A stretch of 64,000 nucleotides of DNA from Candidatus Kapaibacterium sp. GTDB lineage: Bacteria > Bacteroidota > Ignavibacteria > Kapaibacteriales > UBA7675. The stretch is taken from positions 2,922 through 66,921 of the forward strand of contig JANQRB010000176.1 in assembly GCA_028284775.1 (NCBI GenBank), written 5' to 3'. The translations under genes and the position numbers were made by a program. Of this stretch, positions 14,968-39,119 are shown one piece after another. Positions within the stretch are counted from its first letter, which is position 1. The number at the start of each line of letters is the position of its first letter. The notes under the pieces were generated by a model. That model saw only the letters and a list, made by a program, of their open reading frames with translations. It did not search any database and had not been told where the DNA came from.

Positions 14968-17079
14968 TCAGGAAGTTATCATGTCATGCAGTATGAAGAC
15001 GGCCTCCTGAATGAACACGTCTTTGCGAATTTGTTTATACCATTTGCCGGCTTCTTTTTTCTTGTCCTCATCGCTGTCGATGCGTTCCTTATCGGCCTTC
15101 AGGGTATAAACGGTCAGATCAGGATGCTCGCGGTCGATTTCTTTATACTGCTTGGACTGCTCTTTGAATTCTTCTTCTTCGCGCTGTACCGTCGCCGCGT
15201 TGAGGCTCTGCCGCGTCTGGTCGCGGCGTTTCTTCAGTCGGTCGATATTCTCGTGTAGCAGAGCAAAGGTTTCGTTTTGCTCGACTCGTTCAGCGCTTTT
15301 GCTGCGCAGATCATTCACATAATAAGTAGCGCCCTGCCAGCGACGATAGGATAAGGCATCGGTGGCGCGCCAGGGCAGGGCATGGTCCAGCGAACGCTCG
15401 CCGATCTCGATATAACTGTAGGGATCGGGCAGCAGGACGTCGGGCGTTACGCCTTTGAACTGCGTGGACTCGCCATTGATCCGGTAGAATTGCTGAATCG
15501 TCAGTTTCAGCGAGCCGAAGGGCTGGTCCGACGTTAACTCGGCCGGAATGAATCGATTCATATCGGCAAAGGTCTGCACCGTTCCCTTCCCGAAAGTCGG
15601 CGAGGTGCCGACAATAACGGCCCGGCCGTAATCCTTGAGAGCGCCGGCAACGATTTCAGAGGCCGATGCGCTGTAGGTATTCACCAGCACGACCAGCGGT
15701 CCGTCATAGGTAACGCCCGGATTTTCATCGGTCAGGACGCGCGGCCGTTTCTCCTTGCCGCGCACCTGTACAATCGGTCCGGTCTCGATAAACAGCCCGG
15801 CCATCTTGACCGCGTCCTGCAAAGCGCCGCCGCCGTTATTGCGCAGGTCGAGAATCACGCCGTTCACTTTGTCGCGACGAAGCTTCATAAGTTCGCGCCG
15901 CACGTCTTCGGATGATGTCCGCCCACCTTCGTTGCGGAAATCGGAGTAGAACTTCGGCAGGTAGATATAGCCGATCTTTTCTTCATTTTTGTTTTCGATG
16001 ATGGCGGACTTCGCGTAGGTTTCTTCCAGCACGACCACATCGCGGATGATGGGCACAACAATAATGTCGCCGGCGGGTTTTTTCACGGTCAGACGCACCT
16101 CGGAGCCTTTCGGCCCGCGAATCAGCCGCACGGCATCGTCGATGTCGACATCGACAACGTCTTCCGGCTCGGCATCGCCCTGCGCAACTTTCAGTATGAT
16201 ATCTTCCGCTTCCAGATCGCCCTGCCGCCAGGAAGCGCTGCCCGGCACGATGCGTGTCACCTTAATATAGCCGTTGTCGTCCATCAGTTGCGCGCCGATA
16301 CCTTCCAGCTTGCCGGTCATTGAGATATCAAAATTATCTTTTTCGGCCGGCGGGAAGTATTCCGTGTGAGGACCATAAGCGCGCGCCATGGCGTTAACAT
16401 AAGCGGCGAAGCGGTCGTCTTCGTCTTCATTGCCGACATTGTGAAAAAAGCGCTCCATATTTTCGGCCACTTTGGCGCGGGCGCTTGCCTCAAACTCCGC
16501 CTCAGTTTTCACTTCGACTTCCTCGCCGCTCTCGGCGGCATCCCGGAGCTTGTCCTCCCGCTTGTCGATCATGTTCAGATAGCGATTCAAGGCCGAATAC
16601 TTCAGCACCTTGCGCCAGCGATCTTTGAGCTCGGCCGAACTTTGACAGTATGGGCGCTTGTCGCGGTCGGTTTCCAGGTACTCATCGACGGTGAAATCAA
16701 AGGGAGCGGCCAGAATCTCATCGACGTAAGCCTTAACTTCAGTCCGGCGCTTCGCCACAATCGCCGTCGCGCGCTCATAGAGATTGAAGGTGCCGGCCTG
16801 CAATTCATCATCGATCGTTAAGCGGAACTGGCTGAGGGCGTCAATGTCGCTCTGCAGCAGGAAACGCTTCTGGTAATCGAGACGGTCGACATAAAGGTCG
16901 TAAGCACGTTCGGAGAGTTTATCGTCGAGAGGCAGGGGGTGATAATGACCTGAGTTGAGTACCTGAATCAGGGCCTTGCTCAGTATTGTTTCCTTGTCGA
17001 TGTCCGCGCCGACGAGCGTGTAGCCGGCGATACCCAGCACAAGCAGCGGCAAGACCAGCGTCAAAGTCCATTTCTTCAT
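14968..17079 (-). CDS. prc: Tail-specific (C-terminal processing) protease, S41 family, Prc-like
   Basis: The 703-aa protein has a signal peptide (MKKWTLTLVLPLLVLGIAG). A PDZ region is present. The S41 catalytic core is recognisable (GYIYLPKFY...LDLRNNGGG...LVVLVNTYSASASEIVAGALKDYGRAVIVGTSPTFGKGTVQ). The long N- and C-terminal extensions are typical of Prc. Confidence 0.85.
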   Translation of the reverse strand: MKKWTLTLVLPLLVLGIAGYTLVGADIDKETILSKALIQVLNSGHYHPLPLDDKLSERAYDLYVDRLDYQKRFLLQSDIDALSQFRLTIDDELQAGTFNLYERATAIVAKRRTEVKAYVDEILAAPFDFTVDEYLETDRDKRPYCQSSAELKDRWRKVLKYSALNRYLNMIDKREDKLRDAAESGEEVEVKTEAEFEASARAKVAENMERFFHNVGNEDEDDRFAAYVNAMARAYGPHTEYFPPAEKDNFDISMTGKLEGIGAQLMDDNGYIKVTRIVPGSASWRQGDLEAEDIILKVAQGDAEPEDVVDVDIDDAVRLIRGPKGSEVRLTVKKPAGDIIVVPIIRDVVVLEETYAKSAIIENKNEEKIGYIYLPKFYSDFRNEGGRTSSEDVRRELMKLRRDKVNGVILDLRNNGGGALQDAVKMAGLFIETGPIVQVRGKEKRPRVLTDENPGVTYDGPLVVLVNTYSASASEIVAGALKDYGRAVIVGTSPTFGKGTVQTFADMNRFIPAELTSDQPFGSLKLTIQQFYRINGESTQFKGVTPDVLLPDPYSYIEIGERSLDHALPWRATDALSYRRWQGATYYVNDLRSKSAERVEQNETFALLHENIDRLKKRRDQTRQSLNAATVQREEEEFKEQSKQYKEIDREHPDLTVYTLKADKERIDSDEDKKKEAGKWYKQIRKDVFIQEAVFILHDMITS

Positions 17080-17560
17080 TCATCAATCCAAATAAATTAG
17101 CGTTCGGTATCTCAAACCCATTCCGGCTTGTATCGCTCGCACCGACAGCGCCGGGCATTAGCAACTAATTTCTCATTCTTTAGCCAGCTTTGCAAACAGG
17201 CAAACGATTTTAGTATTCGCCTGGTTTCCGTGAACAAAAAAAGAAACACGGTCTACGGCGCGATAGCCGATAAATCGGCTTGGTCCAAACGTGATGCACG
17301 CTGTTTACGACCTGAGATCAAAAATGTTGTGGTATGAGATTGGGCTTGCGTGCGAAGAGAAATTGCCGGTGCTACTTGGTGTCAATGACCGGAAAATTTT
17401 TCGCACATTCAACAGAAATTCTTTTGCACCCTGTTTTAGCCGTCGCTGTAATGGAACTTGCCAGGTATTCAATGAGTCAATATTTCAAAAATACAGACAC
17501 AATGTTATATTAAAAATTCAGCATACATACGTAGTTAAGCTCACTTGGAGGACTGTTCGT

Positions 17561-19552
17561 GTGAAATCTCCTACCGACAGCAAGAGTGACAATCAAGATG
17601 GCGCCAACCAACCAGGGCTCCGGCAGATGGAAATAGAAGAATTTCTGCGCCGGATTTATGACGGACAAAATGACCAGAAGCGCTTCGCCTTCTTCCTCGG
17701 CGCGGGCTGCTCGTCAAGCTCTGGGATTCCAACCGCCGGCGAACTGGTAAAAAATCATTGGCTTCCGCGCCTGCGTAAATTACTGGCGCCTGATCGTTCC
17801 GACCTCGATCAATGGGCCCGCGAAACAATAAAAGCCTATGATCCTGGGAATCCCGCTCAGTCCTATGGTGCGCTGATTGAACGACTGTTCCTGACCCCCG
17901 AAGAACGACAACAAGAGATCGAAAACCTTTGCGACGGCAAAACGCCTTCCTTCGGCTATGCCGTGCTGGCTCAACTCGTCGCCAGCAATCGTAATCGTTT
18001 TAATATAGTACTGACTACAAACTTCGATGATCTCATTGCCGACGCACTGTACCTCTACACGGAGGCAAGACCGCTCGTCATTCATCACGAGTCGTTGGCC
18101 GCATTCATCCGGCCGACGCGCAGCCGCCCGCTGGTCGTCAAACTTCACGGCGATCATCGTTTGTCGCCGCGCAACACTGCCCTCGAAACCAAGTCGATTG
18201 AACAGGAGATTCGCAAAAACACGGCGATGGTGCTCAACGATCGCGGCCTGATATTCATGGGCTACGGCGGGGCGGATCGCGGCATTATCGAGATGCTAAA
18301 TGGCCTGCCCACACATGCGCTGCCGTTTGGCGTTTTCTGGATTCACCCTAACGAACCTCTGGGTGCGATTCGAAGCTGGCTGGCCGATCGCGGTGGTTAT
18401 TGGGTTAAGAGCGGTCCATTTGATGAAGTCATGCTGCTCGCTCAAAGCGAATTCGAGCTTCCTCATCCGGACCAGGAACGTTTCAATCGTATTTTTGACG
18501 ACTACCATCGAAAGTTCCAGTTACTCTCGGCTTCGATCCAGGACAAGCCCGTAGGCGAAGCGGGAACAGAAGCACTGACTAGGGCGCGTGACGAGGCGGA
18601 AGCGCGATTCCCGGATTACTGGAAAGTAATAAGTGAAGCCGACCGCTATAGAAGTTCCAACCCTGATCGCGCCGACGAGTTATACAAACAAGGCGTAGAA
18701 CAGTTTCCAGACGCAGCTCCTCTCCTCGGCAGCTACGCAAGCTTCCTAATAGATCACCGCAAAGACTCCGACCGCGCTGAGTCAATGTTCAAACGGGCAC
18801 TGTTAGCAAATGCAAAAGACGCCATAAATCTCGGCAACTATGCAAACTTTCTCAAAAATTACCGCGAAGACTTCGACGGTGCTGAAACAAGGTACAAACA
18901 GGCGATGGAAGCAAATCCAAACAACGCCATAAACCTCGGAAACTACGCAACCTTCCTTTGGAAGAATCGCAGGGACTTCGACGGAGCTGAAGCAATGTAC
19001 AAACAGGCGATGGAAGCAAACCCTAAAGACGCCACAAACCTCGGTAACTACGCTGATTTCCTCGCGCACATCCGAACAGACTTGGACGGCGCTGAAACAA
19101 TGTACAAAAGGGCGATGGAAGTAGATCCAAATCTCACCATTTATCTCGCAAATCTGAGCGGACTTATGCTGGCGCGTGGCAAAGAAGAAGGCTTGACTCA
19201 TCTTCAGCGAGCGCTTGAACAATTGCAAAGCAAGCCCTATCCAACTGTCGAGCTCGAGTGTGCATTTTATCTCTATGCTCACGGACCCGCGGAGCAGCGC
19301 ACGAAAGCGTTGGAAACCGCAAGACGGCTGATAGAGTCAGGCGTTCGCTCGCCGGGATGGGATATGTCTCGTAATGTCCAACGAGCGCAAGAGGACAAGC
19401 ACCCGGAATCCCAGTGGTTGGAGAAATTGGCAAAGGTGATCGGCGATGAAGCTGAAGTTGAAGTACTGAACAATTGGAGCGCCTGGGCGAACATCAAATT
19501 CGAGAACAATTCGGACAATGAAGCAGGTAAAGAGCCACCGGCGGCAGGTTAG
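17561..19552 (+). CDS. SIR2-like (SIR2_2/ThsA-type) NAD-binding domain fused to a C-terminal TPR array; candidate NADase-type antiphage defence protein
   Basis: The SIR2_2 signature elements are FFLGAGCSSSSGIPTAGELVKNHW, NIVLTTNFDDLIADAL, VVKLHGDH and IFMGYGGAD. A C-terminal array of four or more 34-aa TPRs is present (xxNLGNYAxFLxxxRxDFDGAExxYKQAMEANPxx). I place the start at in-frame GTG 17561 because GGAGG lies at 17547-17551. The ORF track start at 17291 runs through AT-rich, unconserved-looking leader. Confidence 0.8.
   Translation: MKSPTDSKSDNQDGANQPGLRQMEIEEFLRRIYDGQNDQKRFAFFLGAGCSSSSGIPTAGELVKNHWLPRLRKLLAPDRSDLDQWARETIKAYDPGNPAQSYGALIERLFLTPEERQQEIENLCDGKTPSFGYAVLAQLVASNRNRFNIVLTTNFDDLIADALYLYTEARPLVIHHESLAAFIRPTRSRPLVVKLHGDHRLSPRNTALETKSIEQEIRKNTAMVLNDRGLIFMGYGGADRGIIEMLNGLPTHALPFGVFWIHPNEPLGAIRSWLADRGGYWVKSGPFDEVMLLAQSEFELPHPDQERFNRIFDDYHRKFQLLSASIQDKPVGEAGTEALTRARDEAEARFPDYWKVISEADRYRSSNPDRADELYKQGVEQFPDAAPLLGSYASFLIDHRKDSDRAESMFKRALLANAKDAINLGNYANFLKNYREDFDGAETRYKQAMEANPNNAINLGNYATFLWKNRRDFDGAEAMYKQAMEANPKDATNLGNYADFLAHIRTDLDGAETMYKRAMEVDPNLTIYLANLSGLMLARGKEEGLTHLQRALEQLQSKPYPTVELECAFYLYAHGPAEQRTKALETARRLIESGVRSPGWDMSRNVQRAQEDKHPESQWLEKLAKVIGDEAEVEVLNNWSAWANIKFENNSDNEAGKEPPAAG
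18727..19140 (+). repeat. Intragenic tandem repeats (period 102 nt = one TPR unit), about 4 copies with long near-identical stretches
   Basis: Units begin near 18829, 18931 and 19033. Blocks such as GTACAAACAGGCGATGGAAGCAAA recur at 18893 and 18996. A diverged copy lies near 19099. Confidence 0.7.
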
Positions 19553-19840: not shown

Positions 19841-21148
19841 TCACAAAAGCATAAAGCACAAGCCGGCAACGATCGTAAAGGGAATCGCAAACAGCGCCAG
19901 CTTGAGGGGGCTGAGGCCATTGTCAAAATATTTCTTGAGGATCGCGTTGCCGGCCGGATTCGGGGCATTGGCGATAATGGTCAGGCCGCCGCCTGTGACC
20001 GCGCCCGCGACGATGGCGTATTTCTTTTGTCCGATGGCCGAGAATGGTTCGGAGAATCCCGGTTCAAGCGCCAATGTCGAGAGATAGGTTATCGCGGCAT
20101 TATCGTTGAAGGCGGTCAGGATAGTCGAGCCGAGAAAAAGGGGAACCTCGTCGAGGCTGGCGATGATCGGCGCGATCCACCACTCCTGCAGCGAGCCGTG
20201 GGTAACGAGGCCTGCCAGGAAAAAGCCGACCAGCAAGGCCGGTTTGATATTGATATCATCCTGGTACTCGCCGGAGATCGCGCACCAGCCCAGAAAAAAC
20301 AGGAAGCCCAGCATCAGGAGCACGGCGTGGTGGGCGGTGAAGACAGCCCAGCCGAGCGAGAGAATATGGACGCCTATCACCCAGGCCGGAATTCGCTGCA
20401 CCTTCTCTTCCGCCACGGGCAGGACATCCATCCGCTTAAATTCGCGAAAGAAAAGCGCCGCCGCGCCAAAGGTACAGATCACAATCGAGAGGGCGGCTTT
20501 CCAGCCGAAATGCGTGAACATATAAGTGAAGTTTTCCGCCCAGCCCCATTTGGCGGCAACCATAAGGACCGGCGGCGCGGCAAAGTGCGTCAGCGTCCCT
20601 CCGATTGAGACATTAACAAATAGCAGCGCAATTGTGGTGTATTTCAGGACGTTGCTCGGATTACGCTCGAAAAAGTAGCGCGCCAGCAGCATGGCCGAGA
20701 TCGTCATGGCCGCCGGTTCGGTAATGAAAGACCCCAGGATCGGCGTGATGATCAACACTGCAACGTAGAACTTGGCCGTTTGTCCCGGTATTGGAATGAA
20801 GCGACTGAGGCTAAGGACAATTTTGCGGGTGATATATAATACCGGCCGGGTAGCCGCCATCACCATGATTACGATGACAAAGAGCGGTTCCATCATCTTG
20901 GGCGTCACTTTGTCGAAATAGTCCAGGGTCCAGTTGAGGTCGTAGAACCACCAGGAAAGATAAAACAGCGGCACCAACCACAATCCGAAAACAACTTCGA
21001 TTTCGCCGAGAAAATGAAATATGTTCTCGCGCATCGATCCCTCGGGATAGCGGGAAGCGAGCTTGTTGAAATAACTGGCGCTAAAGGTATGCAGAACGGC
21101 CAGGGCAAAAACGCCGGTCGCGATGTAATCAAAAGAGACTTCGGGCAT
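19841..21148 (-). CDS. Polytopic membrane protein, probable ion transporter (resembles the 'putative Na+/H+ antiporter' DUF1504-type family)
   Basis: The 435-aa protein has about 11-12 predicted hydrophobic helices. It has no ATP-binding motifs. The family assignment is from memory and is weak. Confidence 0.5.
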   Translation of the reverse strand: MPEVSFDYIATGVFALAVLHTFSASYFNKLASRYPEGSMRENIFHFLGEIEVVFGLWLVPLFYLSWWFYDLNWTLDYFDKVTPKMMEPLFVIVIMVMAATRPVLYITRKIVLSLSRFIPIPGQTAKFYVAVLIITPILGSFITEPAAMTISAMLLARYFFERNPSNVLKYTTIALLFVNVSIGGTLTHFAAPPVLMVAAKWGWAENFTYMFTHFGWKAALSIVICTFGAAALFFREFKRMDVLPVAEEKVQRIPAWVIGVHILSLGWAVFTAHHAVLLMLGFLFFLGWCAISGEYQDDINIKPALLVGFFLAGLVTHGSLQEWWIAPIIASLDEVPLFLGSTILTAFNDNAAITYLSTLALEPGFSEPFSAIGQKKYAIVAGAVTGGGLTIIANAPNPAGNAILKKYFDNGLSPLKLALFAIPFTIVAGLCFMLL

Positions 21149-21359: not shown

Positions 21360-22025
21360 ATGAAAAAGCCGAACAATCCGATCGCAGCCGTCGACATGGG
21401 CATCTTCCGCTTCGATGGTGAAAGACTAAGCGTCTTTCTCGTGGAGTTGCTTCACGGCTCCTTCCGCGGACGACTGGCGCTCCCCGGCGCCCGCCTGGCC
21501 GCCGAAGAAAGCATGGAAGATGCGGCACTCCGCGTGTACCGGGAAGCAGGCGGCGATACGCCATGCTTCATCGAACAGGTTTATACATTCTCAGCTGTCG
21601 ACCGCGATCCGCGCAGCCGCGCGATCGCAACGGCCTATATGGCTTTTCCGCCGGACGGCTGCCCGCCATTTCAGCCTTGCAGTAAGTATGCCCGCGGCGC
21701 CTGGTACGATGTTTTCACGGTCCGGGACCTGGCCTACGATCATGAGCAGATTTCGCGGGTCTGCCGGCAGCGAATTGCCGCCAAGCTGAACTATACGACG
21801 ATTGCGCTGCTCTTGCTGCCGGAGGAATTTACGCTGACGGAAATGCAGACTCTCTATGAACTGTGCAGCGGCGAACAATTCGATAAACGCAACTTTCGCA
21901 AAAAGATCAAATCGATGAACATCATTGTGGAAACCGGTCGTCAACGAAGCGGTCGCAAAGCCCGTCCCGCAATGCTTTATCGCGCCAAACGGCGAAGCAT
22001 GGAGCTCGTTTCGCTCTTCCGCTAA
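21360..22025 (+). CDS. nrtR: NrtR-type Nudix-related transcriptional regulator of NAD metabolism (Nudix domain + C-terminal winged-helix)
   Basis: The N-terminal Nudix-like fold has a degenerate Nudix box (GRLALPGARLAAEESMEDAALRVYREAGG). The C-terminal ~90 aa match the NrtR DNA-binding domain pattern (ISRVCRQRIAAKLNYTTIALLLLPEEFTLTEMQTLYE...). The gene sits directly upstream of nadV, as in described NrtR regulons. Confidence 0.75.
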   Translation: MKKPNNPIAAVDMGIFRFDGERLSVFLVELLHGSFRGRLALPGARLAAEESMEDAALRVYREAGGDTPCFIEQVYTFSAVDRDPRSRAIATAYMAFPPDGCPPFQPCSKYARGAWYDVFTVRDLAYDHEQISRVCRQRIAAKLNYTTIALLLLPEEFTLTEMQTLYELCSGEQFDKRNFRKKIKSMNIIVETGRQRSGRKARPAMLYRAKRRSMELVSLFR

Positions 22026-22044
22026 AAATTTTTTTTGCCTCACT

Positions 22045-22063
22045 TAGTGTATTTTTTACACTT
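22045..22063. promoter_or_regulatory. Second candidate NrtR operator, immediately upstream of nadV: TAGTGT-N7-ACACTt
   Basis: The site is cacTTAGTGTattttttACACTTaaa, ending 3 nt before the annotated nadV ATG (22067). It shares both half-sites and the AT-rich 7-nt spacer with the site at 21331-21349. Confidence 0.5.
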
Positions 22064-22066
22064 AAA

Positions 22067-23737
22067 ATGCCGGTCCCATTGCTGGCAATGGAGTCCGGAG
22101 AAAGCGAGTCCCTCATGAGTCCGAAACAAGGTAATCCGCAACAGGTATTCCTGCCCCAGCGCAAAACCCACAGAACTCCGCGTCTATTGATGGCCGATGC
22201 CTACACCCTGGGCAGCGGCAAATTCCAGGCGCCCGTCGCACAGGAAAAATCGATATACTATCTCGCCTTTCGCCGCGCCCTGAACGATGTCGACCCAGAG
22301 TTGTATGCCGGGGATGACGAACGCATCGTATTCTGCGGCCTGCAGCGCATACTCGAAAGGCTGTTCTACGAGCCTGTCAGTCATGCCGAGATTGATGAAA
22401 CGCTGCGATTTCTGGCCCGCTTCAAAGCCACGTCGCAGGGCTTGCGGCGCTATCATTTCGACGAAACATTATGGCGCCGCGTCGTGGATGAATTTCAGGG
22501 CCGGCCGCCAATACGCATCGAAGCACTGCCGGAGGGCAGCGTGGCTTATCCCCACGAACCGGTCATACAGGTTAGCTCGCTTGTAGCGGGAATGGGTGAA
22601 TTGGCGGCGTGGTTCGAAAGCAAGATTGTCCAGGTCTGGAGCACGACCGAACGAGCGACCAGGGGACGCCACTGGTTCAAGTATCTGACGGAAATGATTG
22701 CCGAGGTCGATCCTGCCCTGGATCGCGAGGAGCGCTATTTTCTGGCGGCAACACTCACGCACGATTTCGGCGATCGCGGTGGAATCTGCGCGCAGGAATC
22801 CGAAGAGCTGGGAATGACGCACCTGTATTCATTCAGCGGCAGCGACACACTGGCGGGCGCCTACCAGGCCTGGAAAAACAGCGGCGAGCAGGCCGGCGCC
22901 GCAAGCTCGGTGGCAGCCCTGGCGCATCGCAGCGTGCAGCCCTGGCTCCGGGAAGGCGACAGCTACCGCAGCATCTATGACGCGGCCGACAATGGCGACT
23001 TCATTTCGATGGTCGCCGACTGTTATGACTACTTCGCTGCCGTGGATAATTATCTGCTGCCCCTGGCGCTCGAATCGGCCGCCGCCAGCAACGGTAAAAT
23101 TGTGGTTGCGCGGCCTGACAGCGGCGATCCGCTTGACTGCGTGCTCTACGTCTGCAATCTGGCTATTGCGCATGGTTTGTATACCGAATACCATGGCTAC
23201 AAGTATCCGACGACTCTCAAGTGTATCCAGGGCGACGGCATGTCCTTCGCCGTGATGAAACACATCTTCGAAGAACTTAAACAACGGCGATTAGCGCCCC
23301 ACGCCTGGCTGCTCTTCGGTGTCGGCGGCGGCTTGCGCAATCATCTGCAGCGTGATCACCTGGGCGCCAAATATGCCCTCTGCGCTGTCGGCAAGCAAGA
23401 CCGGCCGGTCATTAAATTGTCGGAGACGCCAGGTAAGTCGACACTCCCGGGACCTTTCAAGCTACGCCGCGGTGAAAGTTATCTGCGTTCAGCCACTACG
23501 ATCGCCCTGGCCGCTGAAGCCGGCGACAATGCGCTGATTGAATACTTTAACGGCGCGCGGGTCGAACGACCCTTTGGCCCGGGTCAGGATGATGATTTTG
23601 GCATCATTAGGCAACGCATTCAGGACGGCTTTGACGCGATGCCGCCCAGGATGCCACTGCCCGAGAAAGCATATCCGGCATCAGAGCTGGTGCTGCGGCA
23701 GAGGAAAGCAGAAGAAGAAGCTCGGAGACATAGTTAA
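22067..23737 (+). CDS. nadV: Nicotinamide phosphoribosyltransferase (NAMPT/NadV family)
   Basis: The NAMPT-family signatures present are RIEALPEGSVAYPHEPVIQV, LTHDFGDRG, SFSGSDTLAG and VARPDSGDP. The true start may be a downstream ATG (MESGES at ~22091 or MSPKQ at ~22115), since the operator abuts 22067. Confidence 0.85.
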   Translation: MPVPLLAMESGESESLMSPKQGNPQQVFLPQRKTHRTPRLLMADAYTLGSGKFQAPVAQEKSIYYLAFRRALNDVDPELYAGDDERIVFCGLQRILERLFYEPVSHAEIDETLRFLARFKATSQGLRRYHFDETLWRRVVDEFQGRPPIRIEALPEGSVAYPHEPVIQVSSLVAGMGELAAWFESKIVQVWSTTERATRGRHWFKYLTEMIAEVDPALDREERYFLAATLTHDFGDRGGICAQESEELGMTHLYSFSGSDTLAGAYQAWKNSGEQAGAASSVAALAHRSVQPWLREGDSYRSIYDAADNGDFISMVADCYDYFAAVDNYLLPLALESAAASNGKIVVARPDSGDPLDCVLYVCNLAIAHGLYTEYHGYKYPTTLKCIQGDGMSFAVMKHIFEELKQRRLAPHAWLLFGVGGGLRNHLQRDHLGAKYALCAVGKQDRPVIKLSETPGKSTLPGPFKLRRGESYLRSATTIALAAEAGDNALIEYFNGARVERPFGPGQDDDFGIIRQRIQDGFDAMPPRMPLPEKAYPASELVLRQRKAEEEARRHS

Positions 23738-24070: not shown

Positions 24071-27000
24071 TCACTGAATTCGCTGAAAGCCCGCCACTGA
24101 TCTACGGCCGTCCCTGTGTACAAACTGAATGAAATACATGCCGGGCGCCAGTCCCGCCGTTGAAATGTTAAATTCCCGGGTATCGGTCAGCTCACGTGAA
24201 AAATGGATAGCACCGTGCAGCGACAAGATTCTGGCGACACCGCTGACGTTTTCGTCGAAGCGCAGCCTAAGTTCGCCGGTCGTTGGGTTGGGAAAACTTG
24301 CTATACCAATCGAGGCGCTGCCGTCGGGCGGATTAACAATCCCGGTGCCGATAACAACTGTGACATCGTTTGACGTCAAGACAGGATAGGTGCCGCTGAA
24401 CATCCGTACTTTTGTGTTAAACACTTCGTCCAATGCGCTTCCGGACTTTATCGGCATAGCAAAGACAAACTCCAGTCTGTCATCCGGAACTACACTCTGT
24501 GGTTCGAAACTCGCGCGGGGAATGTTTAATCGATAGTGCCCCCCGGAACGATGTTCGACGAATCGGTCCTGGCGGTTGAAGTCGACAAGTGTCGGTCCCG
24601 CTGTCGAATATGACGTATCATAATCAATCCAGAACTCGAGCCGGCCCTTGTGACGCAGGTGGCCGCGATTGAGAGCTTCCAGGCGGAAATACACGGTGTC
24701 GCCGCCAGTTACGGCTGTCTGGCGGACAGGAGTGCCTTCATCGAGGATGTCGAGTTGTATGTTTCTCTCTTGCAAGGGCCAGGCAAAACATTGCTCCGTC
24801 AGCGGGTCATTTGGCTGGTCGGACTTTGCAAGCAGATCGAAGCAGACTTCATCGCGGCTCGTTTCCGTCGCTATCGCCACTGTAAGGTTTACTGTCCTTT
24901 CCTCCCAGGGCAGCAGGTCTGAAAATTTCTGTAAAATGATCGTCCCGTCCTCTCGTAATTCGCTTGCGCCATAGTCGCTCGATGAAGCGACAATCTCCAT
25001 AGTTGCACCGCCGGCGCTTAGCCAAACAGCACGGAAACGAGCGTCATTGGCACTCAAATTGCGGAATGTCAGTTCAATGCTGAAAAGGCCGGTTTCAATT
25101 AACGGTTCGACGACAAGTTCGGCAGCAGGCCTTGGAGTCGGCGGCGAGGGAATCGGCAATTCGATGTAGGCATTGTGGCCGGCGCTGTCCTCCAGGTCGA
25201 CCCAAAGGGCATTGTCGGCCCGACCGCAGGGCGGCAACCATTGTTGGCTTGCCTGGAGCCGGATTTTGTGTCGATATCCACTCAAGGGAACAGTGGCTTT
25301 GAAGGATCCGTCCGCAGCGGTGACGACGACATTATCGTCTTGCGAGACCACGACGGCTTCATTTGCCACTGCCGGTTCACCCGGATCGCGTATGCAATCG
25401 TTATCGAGGTCTTCGAACACCAGGCCGCGCAGTGTGAAATTTTCAACACTGCCGGGTTCGCAAATTTCGAAGCGCTCGATAATTCCCTCGCCGGATAGCG
25501 TCAGATACCCGTCTCCCTGCGGTGCAAACACCACATCGGTAAAATTTCGACCCAGGGTCGGACATTCCGATACGATCGAGCCTGTCTCCGTATCGAGCAC
25601 GTAAACATTTTTCGTCACTTTGTCCGCAGCCAGCAAATGACGCGAGTCAGGCATGAAGGCCACTTTGAATGCTCTGACATCGAAACGGCGATAGTTGCTT
25701 AGATTGACCTCCGGCCATGCCTGCGTTTCCCATACAGCGATGTAGTCACCCCGCGCAACCGCAAGCAATTGATCGTCAGGCGCAAAGACAGGCAGGACAC
25801 TCTGGTCCTGTTCCGCATCCGAAAGATTAGTGTTAATTTTCTTAAACTCGTCGGAGTTAAATGAGGCCAAACCTTTCTCATCGAATTTTAATCGTCTGTT
25901 GCCGGCATACTGAACGCTTTCAGGGTTGCCCGGACCTGTTTTTTGTGTTAGCAGATAGCCAAAATTACCATAGGCCAGGGCTGCGTTGTGCGCTGTTGCG
26001 AGACTTACCGTAAGGCCGATCTCCGTCGTGCTGAGCACCGACCGACTGTTCGCATCCAGCAAACTAAGCCACCCGACGGGATCAAGATCGTTGCCGCGAA
26101 AGTGGCCGAAGGCAAGCAGTAAAAAACGGCCGTCGCCGGTATAGGCAATCGCCTGCCTATCCACGTGGTCTGCATCGCTGGTCAGAGGGACTTCCTGCTC
26201 AGCGATCATTGCCCCCGAATAGACATCCCAGGTCTGCAAAACTATCACAGCCCGTTTGTGATCAGAGGCCAGGGTTAAACGGCGGCCATCAGCGGTAAAA
26301 TCAAGATTGCTGCCTCGATAGGGCGACAGCTCGATGCGATGACGCACTGTTCCATCGGCCTCGAGAATTCCGACAAGCGCCGCATTATCCGGCGATGTGA
26401 TATTGCTTTTGCGGGCTTTGTAGACGATCGATCCCCCGTCCGGCGCGAAGTCAAGATAGTCGACATGCCTATAGTCTGCCTGCCGCAGCCAACTAGCCCG
26501 GGCAAAATGTTTACTGAAGTCGCCGTCCACTTTCAGGGATTCGTTGTAAAAAGTTCCAGCTTCGGTATATATTTTCAAGGTCACAGTCTTCCGCCCGGCG
26601 GCATTGGCTGTAATACTAAGCGGAAGGTCTATGCAGGATGCCACTGCTAATGACAGGGGAAAAATGTTGTCGGTAAAGCTAAGGGCGGGCATGCCATCGC
26701 CCGGCATAACCTCGATGCCGAAGATCGTCAGGCTGACAGTGTTTGTGGAGCTATTGCATATTCGCAAAGTTTCGTTCAACGGCAGCCCCGGCTCCGCCTG
26801 ATAGATCGGCTCGGCGGGAGAATCATCCTTTAGGCGAAAAATCCTGATCTGTTTTCCCGGGTCGGACAACTCGATGATGGCGCGTTGCGATGGATACCAA
26901 TCCGTATCCACCACAATCTCGACCATGTCATCACTCTTGCGGGGACCATTAAACTGGAACTCGACTGTCTGTGATTGGCCGGATTCCAGGAAGACATCAT

Positions 27001-27643
27001 CATAACTCTCGGGAATGTCTATCGGCGAGAAAGCGCCGCGCGCCGGCCGGATTGCCTTGATGGGCAGGGGTAGCTGACCGGTGTTAATCAGACGAAAAGT
27101 TCCGATTGTCTTTTCGCTCAGATCATCATAGCGAATATCGATCCGATCAATCTTAATACCGGTTTCCCGATACTCGACACTCAGCTTGATCTCCTCGGAA
27201 TGATTTCCCCAACGAGTCCGAAGAAAGGTAAAAGGGCGCCCGAACATGGCTGTCGTCAATTTGAGCGGAATGGTAATGGTATCCGATTGCTCGGTCTGAA
27301 AGGGTGTCTGCGGCGCGCCTGCGGCAAATTCGAATCCCGCCTCGTCGGAAGCAAAACTCAAATCCGAAATCAACAATGGCGTGTGCGTCACCATTCGCAA
27401 ATTCACGATCGTGTCGACGCCCCGCGGCAATGACGGCCGTTCATAGATAAAACTCAGGCTTTGGCTGAGCAGCTGATCCCTGGACTCGTGGGCTTTGCCG
27501 TAGCTTTGCGGCTCAGGAATTTGCGGATATCCATACAGTCCGCTTATTGAACCCGACGACATCAGAGCAATCAAACAGAGTAACTGCCAACGAAACACCG
27601 ACATAGTATTGCCCTGCAAGTTTTTTGTGACTGTCATATTCAT
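24071..27643 (-). CDS. Large secreted multidomain protein (1,190 aa) with T9SS C-terminal sorting domain; beta-propeller-like and CarboxypepD_reg/SdrD-B-like modules
   Basis: The N-terminus has a signal peptide (RWQLLCLIALMSSGSISG). An internal module fits the Cna-B/CarboxypepD_reg pattern (RGLVFEDLDNDCIRDPGEPAVANEAVVV...TAADGSFKA). The C-terminal ~80 aa fit the T9SS CTD pattern (SFPNPTTGELRLRF...GMYFIQF...). Confidence 0.75.
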   Translation of the reverse strand: MNMTVTKNLQGNTMSVFRWQLLCLIALMSSGSISGLYGYPQIPEPQSYGKAHESRDQLLSQSLSFIYERPSLPRGVDTIVNLRMVTHTPLLISDLSFASDEAGFEFAAGAPQTPFQTEQSDTITIPLKLTTAMFGRPFTFLRTRWGNHSEEIKLSVEYRETGIKIDRIDIRYDDLSEKTIGTFRLINTGQLPLPIKAIRPARGAFSPIDIPESYDDVFLESGQSQTVEFQFNGPRKSDDMVEIVVDTDWYPSQRAIIELSDPGKQIRIFRLKDDSPAEPIYQAEPGLPLNETLRICNSSTNTVSLTIFGIEVMPGDGMPALSFTDNIFPLSLAVASCIDLPLSITANAAGRKTVTLKIYTEAGTFYNESLKVDGDFSKHFARASWLRQADYRHVDYLDFAPDGGSIVYKARKSNITSPDNAALVGILEADGTVRHRIELSPYRGSNLDFTADGRRLTLASDHKRAVIVLQTWDVYSGAMIAEQEVPLTSDADHVDRQAIAYTGDGRFLLLAFGHFRGNDLDPVGWLSLLDANSRSVLSTTEIGLTVSLATAHNAALAYGNFGYLLTQKTGPGNPESVQYAGNRRLKFDEKGLASFNSDEFKKINTNLSDAEQDQSVLPVFAPDDQLLAVARGDYIAVWETQAWPEVNLSNYRRFDVRAFKVAFMPDSRHLLAADKVTKNVYVLDTETGSIVSECPTLGRNFTDVVFAPQGDGYLTLSGEGIIERFEICEPGSVENFTLRGLVFEDLDNDCIRDPGEPAVANEAVVVSQDDNVVVTAADGSFKATVPLSGYRHKIRLQASQQWLPPCGRADNALWVDLEDSAGHNAYIELPIPSPPTPRPAAELVVEPLIETGLFSIELTFRNLSANDARFRAVWLSAGGATMEIVASSSDYGASELREDGTIILQKFSDLLPWEERTVNLTVAIATETSRDEVCFDLLAKSDQPNDPLTEQCFAWPLQERNIQLDILDEGTPVRQTAVTGGDTVYFRLEALNRGHLRHKGRLEFWIDYDTSYSTAGPTLVDFNRQDRFVEHRSGGHYRLNIPRASFEPQSVVPDDRLEFVFAMPIKSGSALDEVFNTKVRMFSGTYPVLTSNDVTVVIGTGIVNPPDGSASIGIASFPNPTTGELRLRFDENVSGVARILSLHGAIHFSRELTDTREFNISTAGLAPGMYFIQFVHRDGRRSVAGFQRIQ

Positions 27644-33333: not shown

Positions 33334-33516
33334 ACATGCCTCGGTGTTCTGAAATCAATTTTTCTTACCAGAGTCTCTGGCCCATACTTCACGTACTTTG
33401 TACGCGAGCGTGAGAATGCAGCAGCCCGCCTCAAGCCGAAAAAAAATTGTATACGCATCACTGTTGCAATGAAGCTGTGTCGCTTGCATTTGACACTCCG
33501 AGTACTTGGGCAACAA

Positions 33517-33544
33517 GTCTCTCTCTCCAGATTGAGAGAGAGAG
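33517..33544. other. Perfect 11-bp alternating CT/GA hairpin between the flotillin and giant-ATPase genes
   Basis: The sequence is GTCTCTCTCTC-cagatt-GAGAGAGAGAC. It is palindromic, so it forms on either strand. It lies 123 nt 3' of the flotillin stop and about 185 nt 5' of the ATPase start. Confidence 0.5.
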
Positions 33545-33666
33545 ACCGCTACGGTCGGATCAGACTATTCTCATTGGCCAGATCACTGAACAGACTAAAC
33601 ACAGGACCGGTAAAAGTGGACTTGTCTCGGAATGCGGATGCTGTCCCGGGCAGACCTGGCAAGGGG

Positions 33667-38558: not shown

Positions 38559-39119
38559 ATGAAAATGTCCGACGATCTACGCTCGATGTCTGACGACGAG
38601 GTGTTTGCGCTCGTGCGTCAGGACAACGAGCGCGCCTTCGACGAGATTTACGACCGATACGAAAAACGTTTGTTTGCTTACTGTTTGACGGTGCTGAAGG
38701 ACCGTGAGGCGGCGGCGGATGTATACCAAACGACCATGCTGACGGCCTTCAACAGCCGACATTCGTACAAGGGCGGCAATTTTCCGGCTTGGTTCTTCAC
38801 CATAGCACGCAATTTTTGCCTGAAAGCAAAGCGCAATGTATTGCAGGTCACGTCCATTGACGACTACGCAGAGAGCATTCCCAACGAGCGCGACAGGACA
38901 AACGCCGACTTTCTGCTGGATGAAGCGTTCAGCCGAGCGATCGCCGAGTTGCCCGAGGAATTTCGTCTGCCGATCGAATACAAGTACATGGGCGGCTTTG
39001 CCTACGACGAAATCGCAGAAATGCTCGGTATTAGTCTCTCGCTGGTCAAAGTTCGCATCTTCCGCGGCAAAAAGATCTTACGCAAGGTGCTTCAACCCTA
39101 CATGCAAGAATTGTCATGA
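38559..39119 (+). CDS. ECF-type RNA polymerase sigma-70 factor
   Basis: Region 2 is FDEIYDRYEKRLFAYCLTVLKDREAAADVYQTTMLTAF. Region 4 HTH is LPEEFRLPIEYKYMGGFAYDEIAEMLGISLSLVKVRIFRGKKIL. Confidence 0.85.
   Translation: MKMSDDLRSMSDDEVFALVRQDNERAFDEIYDRYEKRLFAYCLTVLKDREAAADVYQTTMLTAFNSRHSYKGGNFPAWFFTIARNFCLKAKRNVLQVTSIDDYAESIPNERDRTNADFLLDEAFSRAIAELPEEFRLPIEYKYMGGFAYDEIAEMLGISLSLVKVRIFRGKKILRKVLQPYMQELS

What the first reader, a model, noticed from the sequence alone, without database searches (positions are those of the whole stretch)
18727..19140. Near-identical 102-nt tandem repeats inside the SIR2-TPR gene (one TPR per repeat)
At least three consecutive 102-nt units (starting ~18829, 18931, 19033) share long identical nucleotide runs, for example GTACAAACAGGCGATGGAAGCAAA. 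Identity at this level points to recent duplication or ongoing concerted evolution of the sensor TPRs. Repeat-number variation by slipped-strand or recombinational gain or loss is a plausible route to diversify or phase-vary target recognition.
Basis: seen in the sequence. Interest (0 to 1): 0.5.

Follow-up and report, generated by a model that had tools for sequence, protein, structure and literature searches.

The report
Diverged TPR repeat array, SIR2 protein
A gene for a predicted NAD-destroying, immune-type enzyme contains four in-frame 105-base repeats, each coding one helical hairpin of its probable target-binding arm; in this genome the copies are old and only 66-79% alike, but in related genes the same array gains and loses whole units and varies mainly at its binding-face residues.

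Summary
The tandem array is real, but it was mis-measured. Its period is 105 nt (35 aa), not 102. It has four units (18725-19144) that are 66-79% identical, not near-identical. Only one exact run of 20 nt or more exists (24 nt, units 2-3). Each unit is one TPR-like helix pair in a standalone SIR2_2 protein (17561-19552) whose SIR2 domain is closest to Argonaute-associated SPARSA SIR2. Synonymous divergence between units is high (pS about 0.4-0.5). Rare residues shared by units 2-4 still show that they duplicated within this lineage, so the duplicates are old and not being homogenised now. No strain-level relative exists, so copy number could not be compared for this gene. Alleles at least 90% identical differ by exact multiples of 35 aa, through clean unit gain or loss with hybrid junction units. 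Some relatives have arrays 90-93% identical at the nucleotide level. Among young units, pN/pS exceeds 1 at the positions equivalent to the TPR concave ligand-binding face and is about 0.3 elsewhere. No partner gene is conserved. My best reading is a single-protein sensor-effector in which the TPR groove binds an invader molecule and switches on NAD+ cleavage; that step is inferred. Phase variation is not supported.

The parts
17484..17511 (+). Promoter-like site (TTCAAA-16-TATATT, with TG) upstream of the gene
   Evidence: Consensus scan. The count is no higher than in shuffled sequence, so this is weak evidence.
17548..17552 (+). Shine-Dalgarno-like GGAGG, 8 nt before the GTG start codon
   Evidence: Read from the sequence. 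It supports the GTG start at 17561 used in the public 663-aa product P0001.
17561..19552 (+). SIR2_2-TPR gene: 663 aa plus stop (product P0001)
   Evidence: ORF list, translation, exact match to P0001.
17621..18460 (+). SIR2_2 (SIRim-type) Rossmann domain, residues about 21-300. It carries GAGCS (47-51), TTNFDD (N154, D156) and KLHGD (H196).
   Evidence: Pfam PF13289 scores 39.5 bits against a cut-off of 24.5. PADLOC Aga_SIR2-PNTD gives E = 2.8e-39. The motif residues N154, D156 and H196 are invariant and G47, G49, C50 and S51 are at least 90% conserved in 28 homologues. They align to SPARSA Sir2 structure 8jkz. Strands and helices are seen in the model.
18473..18715 (+). Helical linker and N-terminal cap of the solenoid (residues 305-385). 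It includes a degenerate 'unit 0' helix B (PDRADELYKQGVEQFP).
   Evidence: Model helices H305-327, H336-348, H353-363 and H368-381. tblastn with two units finds a 51%-identical stretch at 18665-18829.
18725..18829 (+). Repeat unit 1 (LGSYASFLIDHRKDSDRAESMFKRALLANAKDAIN)
   Evidence: It is 76%, 72% and 66% identical in nucleotides to units 2, 3 and 4.
18830..18934 (+). Repeat unit 2 (LGNYANFLKNYREDFDGAETRYKQAMEANPNNAIN)
   Evidence: It is 79% identical to unit 3. The first copy of the 24-nt exact run lies at 18892-18915.
18935..19039 (+). Repeat unit 3 (LGNYATFLWKNRRDFDGAEAMYKQAMEANPKDATN)
   Evidence: The second copy of the 24-nt run lies at 18997-19020.
19040..19144 (+). Repeat unit 4 (LGNYADFLAHIRTDLDGAETMYKRAMEVDPNLTIY)
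   Evidence: It is 66-71% identical to the other units.
19145..19336 (+). Two degenerate TPR-like hairpins (residues 529-592) that continue the solenoid but are not recognisable as repeats at the DNA level
   Evidence: Model helices H526-538/H543-557 and H561-574/H577-592. Nucleotide identity to the array units is 22-34%.
19337..19549 (+). Family-conserved C-terminal module (SPGWD...WL.KLA...W.AW) and disordered tail
   Evidence: Conserved columns in the 28-sequence alignment. Helices H603-643 are present and pLDDT falls below 50 after residue 649. The C-terminal region is 78% identical, against 66% for the array, in close homologue pairs.

Best explanation
The feature is a four-unit, in-frame, 105-nt (35-codon) tandem array. 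It encodes the central hairpins of a TPR-like alpha-solenoid in a standalone SIR2_2 (SIRim-type) protein. Each unit is a 15-residue helix A, a two-residue turn, a 14-residue helix B and a four-residue loop. It is a canonical TPR with one extra residue at the end of helix A. At the DNA level the units are old duplicates made within this lineage. They have drifted to 66-79% identity and are probably stable now. In the wider family the same array changes in two ways. Whole units are gained and lost by in-register recombination between similar units, which gives 35-aa length steps among near-identical alleles. Amino-acid replacement is concentrated at unit positions 6, 9, 10, 32, 34 and 35, which correspond to the concave ligand-binding face of canonical TPRs, while the scaffold positions are under purifying selection. 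Inferred mechanism: the concave groove carries a conserved Asn at the position of the O-GlcNAc transferase (OGT) asparagine ladder, flanked by the variable residues. It binds a foreign molecule, most likely an extended stretch of an invader protein. Binding relieves inhibition or drives assembly of the N-terminal SIR2 domain, which cleaves NAD+ and aborts the infection. Shown here: the repeat anatomy, the fold prediction, intact catalytic motifs, family-wide unit polymorphism, the site-specific replacement pattern and the absence of a conserved partner gene. Inferred: ligand binding, NADase activity and a defence role.
For: Anatomy. The period is 105 with 3.9 copies. The model has one helix pair per 35 aa with pLDDT above 93. 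Pfam TPR_19, TPR_17 and TPR_14 all score above their cut-offs. The array matches consensus TPR proteins and OGT TPRs in sequence (E = 3.5e-66 to 7e-37) and in fold.

Age. pS is 0.42-0.49. Codon sharing is 64-72% against about 45% expected. Units 2-4 share rare residues.

Family dynamics. All inspected homologues have 35-aa periodicity, with 2-15 units. Mean nucleotide identity of units reaches 0.88-0.93 in L065, L004, L041, L023, L012, L009 and L032, three of which (L012, L023, L041) are chromosome-level assemblies. Allele clusters differ by exact 35-aa steps, and units 7-11 of P0050 show clean deletions with hybrid junctions. The units that recombine are 81-94% identical with 39-81-nt exact runs. 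In close homologue pairs the array is 66% identical, against 90% for the SIR2 region.

Site pattern. Among 189 unit pairs at least 85% identical from 25 loci, pN/pS is 1.2-9.7 at positions 6, 9, 10, 32 and 34. Pooled over the hypervariable codon set (6, 9, 10, 11, 32, 34, 35) it is 1.44, against 0.34 elsewhere. HMMER alignment to OGT maps these positions to canonical TPR positions 9, 11-13, 34, 2 and 3, and maps unit N3 to canonical position 6. Magliery and Regan list positions 2, 5, 9, 12, 13, 33 and 34 as the variable concave-face positions (PMC1261162).

Effector. The SIR2_2 domain scores above its Pfam cut-off. Its best matches are Argonaute-associated SIR2 models (2.8e-39) and the SPARSA structures 8jkz, 8jl0 and 8in8. 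The catalytic residues N154, D156 and H196 are invariant and the GAGCS glycines are at least 90% conserved.

Genomic context. No neighbour is conserved across 80 loci. The family is spread sporadically across many bacterial and archaeal phyla. A family member lies on a Rhizobium plasmid, a full-length match on a Methylobacterium plasmid, and a more distant SIR2+TPR relative in a Haloferax provirus.
Against: There is no experimental evidence for NADase activity, ligand binding or phage defence in any family member; no paper on this architecture was found. Neighbours in 17 loci are mostly housekeeping genes. Among 131 neighbour ORFs, PADLOC hits were scattered: every model listed was matched by a single ORF, largely through generic domains, so there is no defence-island signal. 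The pN/pS counts pool non-independent unit pairs and ignore recombination, so positive selection has not been formally established. Some length variants in short-read metagenome assemblies could be collapsed repeats, for example P0002 versus P0061. I could not inspect model coordinates, so placing the variable residues on the concave face rests on sequence alignment to canonical TPRs and on helix register.
Confidence: 0.62

Rival explanations
1. The units in this gene are recent duplicates, or are being actively homogenised, and the array changes copy number at an appreciable rate by slippage or recombination, giving phase-variable or diversifying target recognition in this organism.
For: A 24-nt exact run is shared by units 2 and 3. 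Codon sharing exceeds expectation. Relatives clearly show unit-number polymorphism.
Against: Nucleotide identity is 66-79% and pS is 0.42-0.49. Only one run reaches 20 nt. Polymorphic arrays in relatives have 81-94% identity and 39-81-nt runs. Units are no closer to each other than to units of unrelated proteins. The independent assembly is identical. The unit length is divisible by three, so no on/off switch is possible.
Confidence: 0.08
2. Protein-level periodicity only. The nucleotide similarity between units merely reflects selection for the same TPR scaffold residues plus codon bias, and says nothing about DNA-level duplication history or dynamics.
For: Most identical stretches code for the conserved scaffold motifs (LGNYA, DGAE, YKQAMEA). 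The 24-nt run is only marginally unexpected, P = 0.036.
Against: Same-amino-acid codons are identical in 64-72% of cases against about 45% expected from local codon usage. Units 2-4 share M26, which is present in 1% of family units, plus G17, and Q24 in units 2-3. That points to common descent within this lineage. Relatives have units up to 100% identical in nucleotides.
Confidence: 0.08
3. Not an immune sensor. The protein is a cellular NAD-dependent regulator or protein-modifying sirtuin whose TPR arm docks onto host partners. The array's variability reflects relaxed constraint on a generic scaffold.
For: Neighbourhoods are mostly housekeeping and show no defence-island signal. In the window the gene lies between a tail-specific protease and an antiporter, near the NAD-salvage genes NrtR and NAMPT.
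Against: The family is sporadic: 245 confirmed hits among 185,579 species genomes, spread over distant bacterial and archaeal phyla, plus plasmid copies and a more distant SIR2+TPR gene in a provirus. The SIR2 domain is closest to the pAgo-associated NADase clade. Relaxed constraint would not push pN/pS above 1 at specific concave-face codons while scaffold codons stay at 0.01-0.3. The NAD-salvage neighbours are not conserved in relatives.
Confidence: 0.17
4. The 35-residue units act like pentatricopeptide (PPR) or TALE-type modules. Each unit reads one element of a linear nucleic acid through its variable residues, and this couples sequence-specific RNA or DNA recognition to an Argonaute-type SIR2.
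For: The 35-aa period equals that of PPR motifs. Variation is confined to a few positions per unit. The SIR2 domain is closest to that of nucleic-acid-triggered SPARSA.
Against: No Pfam PPR family appears among the matches at E up to 0.1, whereas several TPR and HAT families do. The best matches are peptide-binding TPRs (OGT, consensus TPR proteins). The unit consensus carries roughly as many conserved acidic residues (D14, D16, E19, E27, D29) as basic ones (R12, K13, K23, R24), as read. The variable positions match the TPR peptide-binding face.
Confidence: 0.05

Closest known systems
DSR2 (defence-associated sirtuin 2) of Bacillus subtilis
   Same: Both are single polypeptides with an N-terminal SIR2_2-type NADase and a C-terminal alpha-solenoid. 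In DSR2 the solenoid binds a phage protein, the tail tube, and switches on NAD+ depletion (PMC11850899, abstract). Foldseek aligns the whole model to DSR2 chains at E about 5e-7.
   Different: No DSR model appears among the PADLOC hits. Foldseek TM-scores are only 0.25. The DSR2 sensor is not a tandem array of homologous units, whereas here the sensor is a 35-aa TPR array followed by a family-specific C-terminal module.
SPARSA: SIR2-APAZ with short prokaryotic Argonaute (structures 8jkz, 8jl0, 8in8)
   Same: This is the closest SIR2 domain by profile (Aga_SIR2-PNTD 2.8e-39), by sequence (3.7e-19, with shared GAGxS, TTNFDD, HGD and GYxGxD motifs) and by fold (E = 1.8e-8).
   Different: The PADLOC match covers only profile positions 5-276 of 558, so no APAZ domain is matched. 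No Argonaute gene is found in the window or as a conserved neighbour in 80 loci. TPRs replace the nucleic-acid-sensing partner.
Fungal NOD-like receptors with highly internally conserved TPR, ANK or WD repeats (Dyrka et al. 2014, PMC4986451)
   Same: The evolutionary regime matches that seen in relatives of this gene: high internal repeat conservation, repeat-number polymorphism between isolates (2 to more than 14 TPRs), and positively selected sites on the concave TPR face (compared).
   Different: There is no NACHT or NB-ARC NTPase here. The family is prokaryotic. The unit length is 35 aa. The window's own array (58% mean amino-acid identity) falls well below the 85% criterion used for fungal arrays.
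O-GlcNAc transferase TPR superhelix and designed consensus TPR proteins
   Same: These are the best sequence and fold matches for the array. The conserved unit Asn3 aligns with canonical position 6, the OGT asparagine-ladder position (alignment; the ladder's role in binding the peptide backbone is from my own knowledge of the OGT literature).
   Different: Those repeats are 34 residues long. OGT's TPRs present substrates to a glycosyltransferase and are not polymorphic in number.
Avs/AVAST STAND receptors, including SIR2-bearing Avs5 (PMC12931631)
   Same: They follow the same logic: a SIR2 effector plus a C-terminal repeat-type sensor that recognises phage proteins (abstract).
   Different: Avs proteins need a central STAND ATPase for oligomerisation. 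None is detectable here.
Bacterial contingency loci (slipped-strand phase variation)
   Same: Both involve a tandem repeat inside a coding region.
   Different: Contingency repeats are short, near-perfect and shift the reading frame. These units are 105 nt, in frame, and in this gene only 66-79% identical.

Membership tests
Tetratricopeptide repeat (TPR) | Helix-turn-helix hairpin per unit, stacking into a solenoid | tested here: met
   The AlphaFold2 model has helix pairs 386-400/403-416, 421-435/438-451, 456-470/473-486 and 491-505/508-521, with pLDDT above 93. Foldseek matches consensus TPR proteins and OGT TPRs.
Tetratricopeptide repeat (TPR) | Sequence match to curated TPR profiles above threshold | tested here: met
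   TPR_19 scores 51 bits (cut-off 25), TPR_17 41 (24.4) and TPR_14 34 (23.5).
Tetratricopeptide repeat (TPR) | 34-residue unit length | tested here: not met
   The period is 35 aa (105 nt) in the window and in every homologue inspected. HMMER places a one-residue insertion at the end of helix A relative to OGT TPRs. It is therefore a 35-residue TPR variant.
SIR2_2 / SIRim subfamily of sirtuins | Match to PF13289 above the gathering score | tested here: met
   39.5 bits against a cut-off of 24.5.
SIR2_2 / SIRim subfamily of sirtuins | GxG NAD-binding motif, xxNxD motif and catalytic His retained | tested here: met
   N154, D156 (TTNFDD) and H196 (KLHGD) are invariant, and the GAGCS residues G47, G49, C50 and S51 are at least 90% conserved, in 28 homologues. 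They align with the same motifs in SPARSA Sir2. The motif definition comes from 10.1101/2024.09.18.613514.
SIR2_2 / SIRim subfamily of sirtuins | NAD+ glycohydrolase activity | not testable with these tools
   This needs biochemistry.
SPARSA (SIR2-APAZ plus short pAgo) | APAZ domain fused to SIR2 | tested here: not met
   PADLOC and PDB alignments stop at the end of the SIR2 domain. The C-terminal half is TPR.
SPARSA (SIR2-APAZ plus short pAgo) | Adjacent short Argonaute gene | tested here: not met
   The neighbours in the window are a tail-specific protease and a Na+/H+ antiporter. No neighbour is conserved in 80 loci.
DSR2 | Sequence membership (PADLOC DSR models) | tested here: not met
   No DSR model appears among 14 PADLOC hits at E up to 0.1.
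Phase-variable tandem-repeat (contingency) locus | Near-identical units able to misalign | tested here: not met
   Units are 66-79% identical and the longest exact run is 24 nt.
Phase-variable tandem-repeat (contingency) locus | Length differences among closely related genomes or reads | tested here: inconclusive
   No relative above 68% identity was found. One independent assembly is identical. Read-level data are not available.
Highly internally conserved repeat arrays of immune receptors (fungal NLR type) | At least 85% amino-acid identity between units | tested here: not met
   The window array averages 58%, with a maximum of 71%. The criterion is met in relatives such as P0007 (0.94), P0091 (0.90) and P0009 (0.88).
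Highly internally conserved repeat arrays of immune receptors (fungal NLR type) | Repeat-number polymorphism among alleles | tested here: inconclusive
   It is met in four clusters of relatives at least 90% identical but could not be tested for the window gene.
Highly internally conserved repeat arrays of immune receptors (fungal NLR type) | Excess amino-acid replacement at ligand-face codons | tested here: met
   This holds at family level. pN/pS is 1.44 at the hypervariable codons against 0.34 elsewhere, in 189 young unit pairs. The counts are crude and not a recombination-aware test.
Pentatricopeptide repeat (PPR) | 35-residue helical hairpin matching PPR profiles | tested here: not met
   The length matches, but no Pfam PPR family appears among the matches at E up to 0.1, and TPR and HAT families match instead.
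Diversity-generating retroelement target | Template repeat and reverse transcriptase nearby | tested here: not met
   No second copy of the unit exists anywhere in the 64-kb window. Across 80 loci no neighbour gene of any kind is conserved.

The most novel reading that the evidence does not exclude
The SIR2-TPR35 family may be a prokaryotic counterpart of fungal NLR-type receptors that works without an NTPase. Populations would keep a repertoire of sensor arms, generated by cassette-like gain, loss and shuffling of 35-residue units together with diversifying selection on an asparagine-ladder groove. Each unit would contribute a few specificity residues that read successive segments of an extended invader polymer (a peptide or, less likely, a nucleic-acid strand). 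Array length and unit order would then set specificity and directly gate an Argonaute-type SIR2 NADase.
Probability: 0.2. Interest if true: 0.7.

Novelty: new variant of a known kind. Interest (0 to 1): 0.42.

Why it matters
On its own, the repeat in this window is an ordinary, diverged TPR array. Following it outward reveals a widespread protein family that, as far as I could find, has not been studied experimentally. More than 1,150 homologues were detected, across many bacterial and archaeal phyla, on plasmids, and as a more distant relative in a provirus. In this family a SIR2 NADase of the Argonaute-associated clade is fused directly to a modular TPR arm. That arm shows the three hallmarks of a fast-evolving immune receptor: internal repeat conservation, unit-number polymorphism among near-identical alleles, and replacement focused on the ligand face. 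If the inferred mechanism holds, the family would be a compact system for studying how repeat number and a handful of groove residues set recognition specificity. It would also be a prokaryotic parallel to the repeat dynamics known from fungal NLRs. Cultured carriers exist and would make it testable: Azospirillum canadense DS2, Magnetofaba australis, and Rhizobium phaseoli R630 plasmid pRphaR630c.

Tried and rejected
- **Period of 102 nt (34 aa).** Rejected: Tandem Repeats Finder and direct alignment give 105 nt.
- **Strain-level copy-number comparison for this gene.** Not possible. The best protein relatives are 63-68% identical, two exact or wobble-degenerate scans of metagenome contigs returned nothing, and the only other contig carrying the gene is identical.
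- **Conserved partner genes.** All-against-all clustering of 1,477 flanking ORFs from 80 loci gave no cluster present in more than 7 loci, and the top clusters are generic families such as short-chain dehydrogenases, histidine kinases and ABC ATPases.
- **Defence-island association.** A PADLOC scan of 131 neighbour ORFs from 17 loci gave only scattered hits; each model listed was matched by a single ORF.
- **Diversity-generating retroelement.** No template copy of the unit exists in the window, and no neighbour gene of any kind is conserved across the 80 loci.
- **PPR identity.** There are no Pfam PPR hits.
- **Antisense ORF 18803-19282 (159 aa).** It has no NCBIfam hit and lies wholly antisense to the array, so I treat it as spurious.
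- **Phage carriage.** One distant SIR2-only hit was found in IMG/VR. The INPHARED phage hits cover only the SIR2 domain, apart from a Haloferax provirus SIR2+TPR protein with different repeats.
- **NCBIfam name.** Only generic TPR models matched, all below cut-off.
- **Literature.** No paper contains 'SIR2-TPR'. SIR2_2 fused to TPR appears only as a label in phylogenetic trees.
- **NAD-salvage neighbours as functional partners.** They are not conserved in relatives.
Full report
**1. The observation**

The sequence at 18500-19500 contains one tandem array. Tandem Repeats Finder places it at 18724-19131 with period 105, 3.9 copies, 76% matches, no indels and score 410. The repeat finder gives start-to-start spacings of 105 and 105. 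It is the only tandem array scoring 60 or more in the whole 64-kb window, and no other copy of the unit occurs elsewhere in the window.

In codon register the units start at 18725, 18830, 18935 and 19040. Pairwise nucleotide identity is 66-79% and amino-acid identity 46-71%. Neighbouring 105-nt blocks outside the array are 22-40% identical to the units.

It is the only exact run of 20 nt or more; the next longest are 11 nt. Given 22 mismatches placed at random in 105 positions, a run that long arises with P = 0.036.

So the repeat is real and non-random, but three stated details are wrong. The period is 105, not 102. There are four units, not three. 'Near-identical' overstates the similarity.

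**2. The gene**

The array lies in an ORF whose public product (P0001, 663 aa) starts at a GTG at 17561, 8 nt after a GGAGG motif, and ends at 19552.

The N-terminal half is a SIR2_2 domain (PF13289, 39.5 bits against a cut-off of 24.5). Its best matches are:
- the Argonaute-associated SIR2 models of PADLOC (2.8e-39; a pAgo model at 2.3e-31; the candidate PDC-S65 at 6.5e-25), always over the SIR2 part only;
- the Sir2 subunit of the solved SPARSA complexes, by sequence (3.7e-19, with shared GAGxS, TTNFDD, HGD and GYxGxD motifs) and by fold.

In 28 homologues N154, D156 and H196 are invariant and the GAGCS residues are at least 90% conserved. These are the GxG and NxD motifs used to define catalytically competent SIRim domains (10.1101/2024.09.18.613514).

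The C-terminal half scores above threshold on several Pfam TPR families. No NCBIfam model describes the protein. The antisense ORF 18803-19282 has no family match.

**3. Structure of a unit**

An AlphaFold2 model built with 28 homologues has mean pLDDT 85.6, and above 93 through the array. Each 35-residue unit is a 15-residue helix, a two-residue turn, a 14-residue helix and a four-residue loop. Two further degenerate hairpins and a small conserved C-terminal module follow, and a helical cap precedes the array. 'One TPR per repeat' is therefore right.

The profile of the family matches designed consensus TPR proteins (E down to 3.5e-66) and the TPR superhelix of O-GlcNAc transferase (OGT) (7e-37). 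Foldseek agrees.

HMMER's residue-level alignment to OGT places a single-residue insertion at the end of helix A. Unit position p corresponds to canonical TPR position p+3 in helix A and p+2 from position 9 onward. The conserved unit Asn3 falls on canonical position 6.

**4. Age of the window's units**

Between units, pS is 0.42-0.49 and pN is 0.15-0.22. These are old duplicates, at roughly 0.6-0.8 synonymous substitutions per site after Jukes-Cantor correction (my calculation).

At the protein level each unit is as close to units of unrelated homologues (23-25 of 35 identical) as to its own neighbours (20-25 of 35).

Common descent within this lineage is still visible:
- Codons for identical residues match in 64-72% of cases, against about 45% expected from local codon usage.
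- Units 2-4 share M26 (1% of 833 family units) and G17 (12%). Units 2-3 also share Q24 (4%) and F15 (6%).

I conclude that the array arose by duplication in this lineage and has since drifted. Nothing indicates homogenisation now.

**5. The family**

A search of 5.8 billion proteins found 1,153 homologues at E up to 1e-5 among the 8,000 candidates scored. The best relative other than the protein itself is 63% identical. The 120 listed proteins are 541-1062 aa long. Every homologue inspected has units spaced 35 aa apart, and the number of units runs from about 2 to 15.

A scan of one genome per species found 245 confirmed loci. They include Acidobacteriota, Verrucomicrobiota, Chloroflexota, Gemmatimonadota, Planctomycetota, Actinomycetota, Pseudomonadota, Methanosarcinaceae, Methanoperedenaceae, Halobacteria and Heimdallarchaeota. 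This is a sporadic distribution that looks like horizontal transfer.

Relatives also occur on plasmids and in a provirus:
- Rhizobium phaseoli R630 plasmid pRphaR630c, conjugative by PLSDB typing, carries a confirmed full-length member. It sits next to genes for an FRG-domain protein, an S8 peptidase and a NERD-kinase.
- A Methylobacterium currus plasmid carries a match covering 95% of the query.
- A Haloferax pleolipovirus provirus carries a more distant SIR2+TPR gene next to its integrase.

IMG/VR viral contigs essentially lack the family.

**6. Repeat dynamics in relatives**

Mean in-register nucleotide identity of units ranges from 0.34 to 0.93 across 65 arrays. The window's value of 0.72 lies near the middle of that range (32nd of 65). 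Seven loci reach 0.88-0.93, with unit pairs up to 100% identical. These include three single-contig chromosome assemblies (L012, L023, L041), so near-identical arrays are not just a short-read artefact.

Within 90%-identity clusters, lengths differ by exact multiples of 35 aa: 1062/1027/992/922, 810/775/740, 816/851 and 657/622/587. Unit-by-unit comparison shows every other unit identical at 34-35 of 35 residues. The differences are clean loss or gain of units, with hybrid units at the junctions. The same variants recur in independent data sets. That is the signature of in-register recombination between units.

The units involved are 81-94% identical with exact runs of 39-81 nt, well above anything in the window's array. 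Among 50 homologue pairs with SIR2 regions 85-99% identical, 38 differ in unit number. Mean identity in these pairs is 90% for the SIR2 region, 78% for the C-terminal module and 66% for the array.

One case, P0002 versus P0061, is a 7-unit deletion between near-identical unit pairs and could be an assembly collapse.

**7. Where units differ**

Within proteins, the positions that most often differ between units are 10, 6 and 9 (70-79% of unit pairs differ). Next come 34, 35 and 32 (63-67%). Scaffold positions differ in 22-45% of pairs.

I then restricted the analysis to 189 unit pairs at least 85% identical in nucleotides, from 25 loci:
- pN/pS is 1.2-9.7 at positions 6, 9, 10, 32 and 34.
- It is 0.01-0.3 at the scaffold positions L1, Y4, F7, L8, R12, A18, Y22 and R24.
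- Pooled, it is 1.44 at the hypervariable codon set (6, 9, 10, 11, 32, 34, 35) and 0.34 elsewhere.

The pairs are not independent and recombination is ignored. This is a strong pattern, not a formal test.

Using the mapping, the variable positions correspond to canonical TPR positions 9, 11-13, 34, 2 and 3. Magliery and Regan identified positions 2, 5, 9, 12, 13, 33 and 34 as the hypervariable, concave, ligand-contacting positions of TPRs (PMC1261162).

**8. Genomic context**

In the window the gene is flanked by a tail-specific protease (14968-17079, minus strand) and a Na+/H+ antiporter (19841-21148, minus strand). An NrtR-like regulator and a NAMPT-type enzyme lie further downstream.

Clustering 1,477 flanking ORFs from 80 loci found no neighbour family in more than 7 loci, and the commonest were generic. 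A PADLOC scan of 131 neighbours from 17 loci gave only scattered hits; every model listed was matched by a single ORF.

The protein is therefore a standalone unit, and it is not visibly embedded in defence islands. I count that against the immune reading, although the Rhizobium plasmid context looks defence-like.

**9. Mechanism**

What is shown: the repeat anatomy, the fold prediction, intact catalytic motifs, unit polymorphism in relatives, replacement focused on the groove face, no conserved partner gene, and a sporadic, partly mobile distribution.

What is inferred: the concave groove carries a conserved Asn at the OGT-ladder position, flanked by the variable residues. It binds a foreign molecule, most plausibly an extended segment of an invader protein. 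Binding activates the SIR2 domain to hydrolyse NAD+. This would parallel DSR2, in which a C-terminal solenoid binds the phage tail tube and activates an N-terminal SIR2 NADase (PMC11850899).

The rivals are set out separately with their probabilities:
- active instability in this gene;
- pure protein-level periodicity;
- a non-immune sirtuin;
- a PPR-like nucleic-acid reader.

**10. Comparison with what is known**

The effector belongs to SIR2_2/SIRim. It is closest to the SPARSA clade but lacks APAZ and Argonaute. In architecture the protein works like DSR2, but it is not a DSR2 family member.

The evolutionary behaviour of the array in relatives matches that described for TPR, ANK and WD arrays of fungal NLRs: internal repeat conservation, repeat-number polymorphism, and positive selection on the concave face (PMC4986451). 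Here there is no NOD NTPase.

I found no paper on this architecture. 'SIR2-TPR' returns nothing, and TPR appears only as a fusion label in SIR2_2 trees.

**11. Verdict**

The window's repeat itself is ordinary. The family behind it is a moderately interesting, testable variant of known single-protein sensor-NADase systems.

Noticed in passing
window 21360-23737 (+): An NrtR-like Nudix/winged-helix regulator (21360-22025) and a NAMPT-type nicotinamide phosphoribosyltransferase (22067-23737) lie about 1.8 kb downstream of the predicted NADase gene. A Na+/H+ antiporter on the other strand separates them from it. NAD-salvage genes next to an NAD-consuming enzyme is suggestive, but these neighbours are not conserved in 80 related loci.
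   Followed up: partly
window 28414-35904 (-): A 1639-aa protein with DUF3686 ('ATPase involved in DNA repair'), DUF7902 and an AAA domain lies at 28414-33333. The adjacent 745-aa ORF at 33667-35904 has no Pfam or PADLOC match and lies in a stretch of strong strand asymmetry (AT skew -0.30, GC skew -0.16 at 34-36 kb). The function is unknown, and together they may form a system worth a separate look.
   Followed up: partly
window 24071-27643 (-): A 1190-aa protein carries a C-terminal type IX secretion sorting domain (Por_Secre_tail, weak and below the Pfam cut-off), which hints at a host from the Bacteroidota/FCB group. I did not determine the organism.
   Followed up: no
L087 2062-3729 (Haloferax virus Halfgib1, MW344766.1): A pleolipovirus provirus encodes a SIR2 plus TPR protein beside its integrase and a Dcm methyltransferase. 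Its SIR2 domain matches the family profile (4.4e-55), but its repeats are of a different kind.
   Followed up: partly
L086 8004-9899 (Rhizobium phaseoli R630 plasmid pRphaR630c, WP_064829460.1): A full-length family member in a cultured strain, on a plasmid typed as conjugative, with degenerate repeats. It is flanked by genes for an FRG-domain protein, an S8 peptidase, a DUF3616 protein and a NERD-domain kinase, a context that looks defence-like. It is a practical starting point for experiments.
   Followed up: partly
P0002 (816 aa) versus P0061 (571 aa): These two metagenomic proteins are identical except for a clean deletion of seven units, which falls between two near-identical unit pairs. 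It is either a large natural recombination event or a short-read assembly collapse.
   Followed up: partly
L003 (CAMASI010000008.1): A 53%-identical family member sits on a contig labelled 'MAG: Klebsiella pneumoniae'. That is an unexpected host for a family otherwise seen in environmental phyla, so the contig may be mis-binned or mislabelled.
   Followed up: no
window 39116-40201 (+): A second, unrelated protein with a weak TPR_12 match (below the Pfam cut-off). It shares no similarity with the 35-residue units.
   Followed up: no
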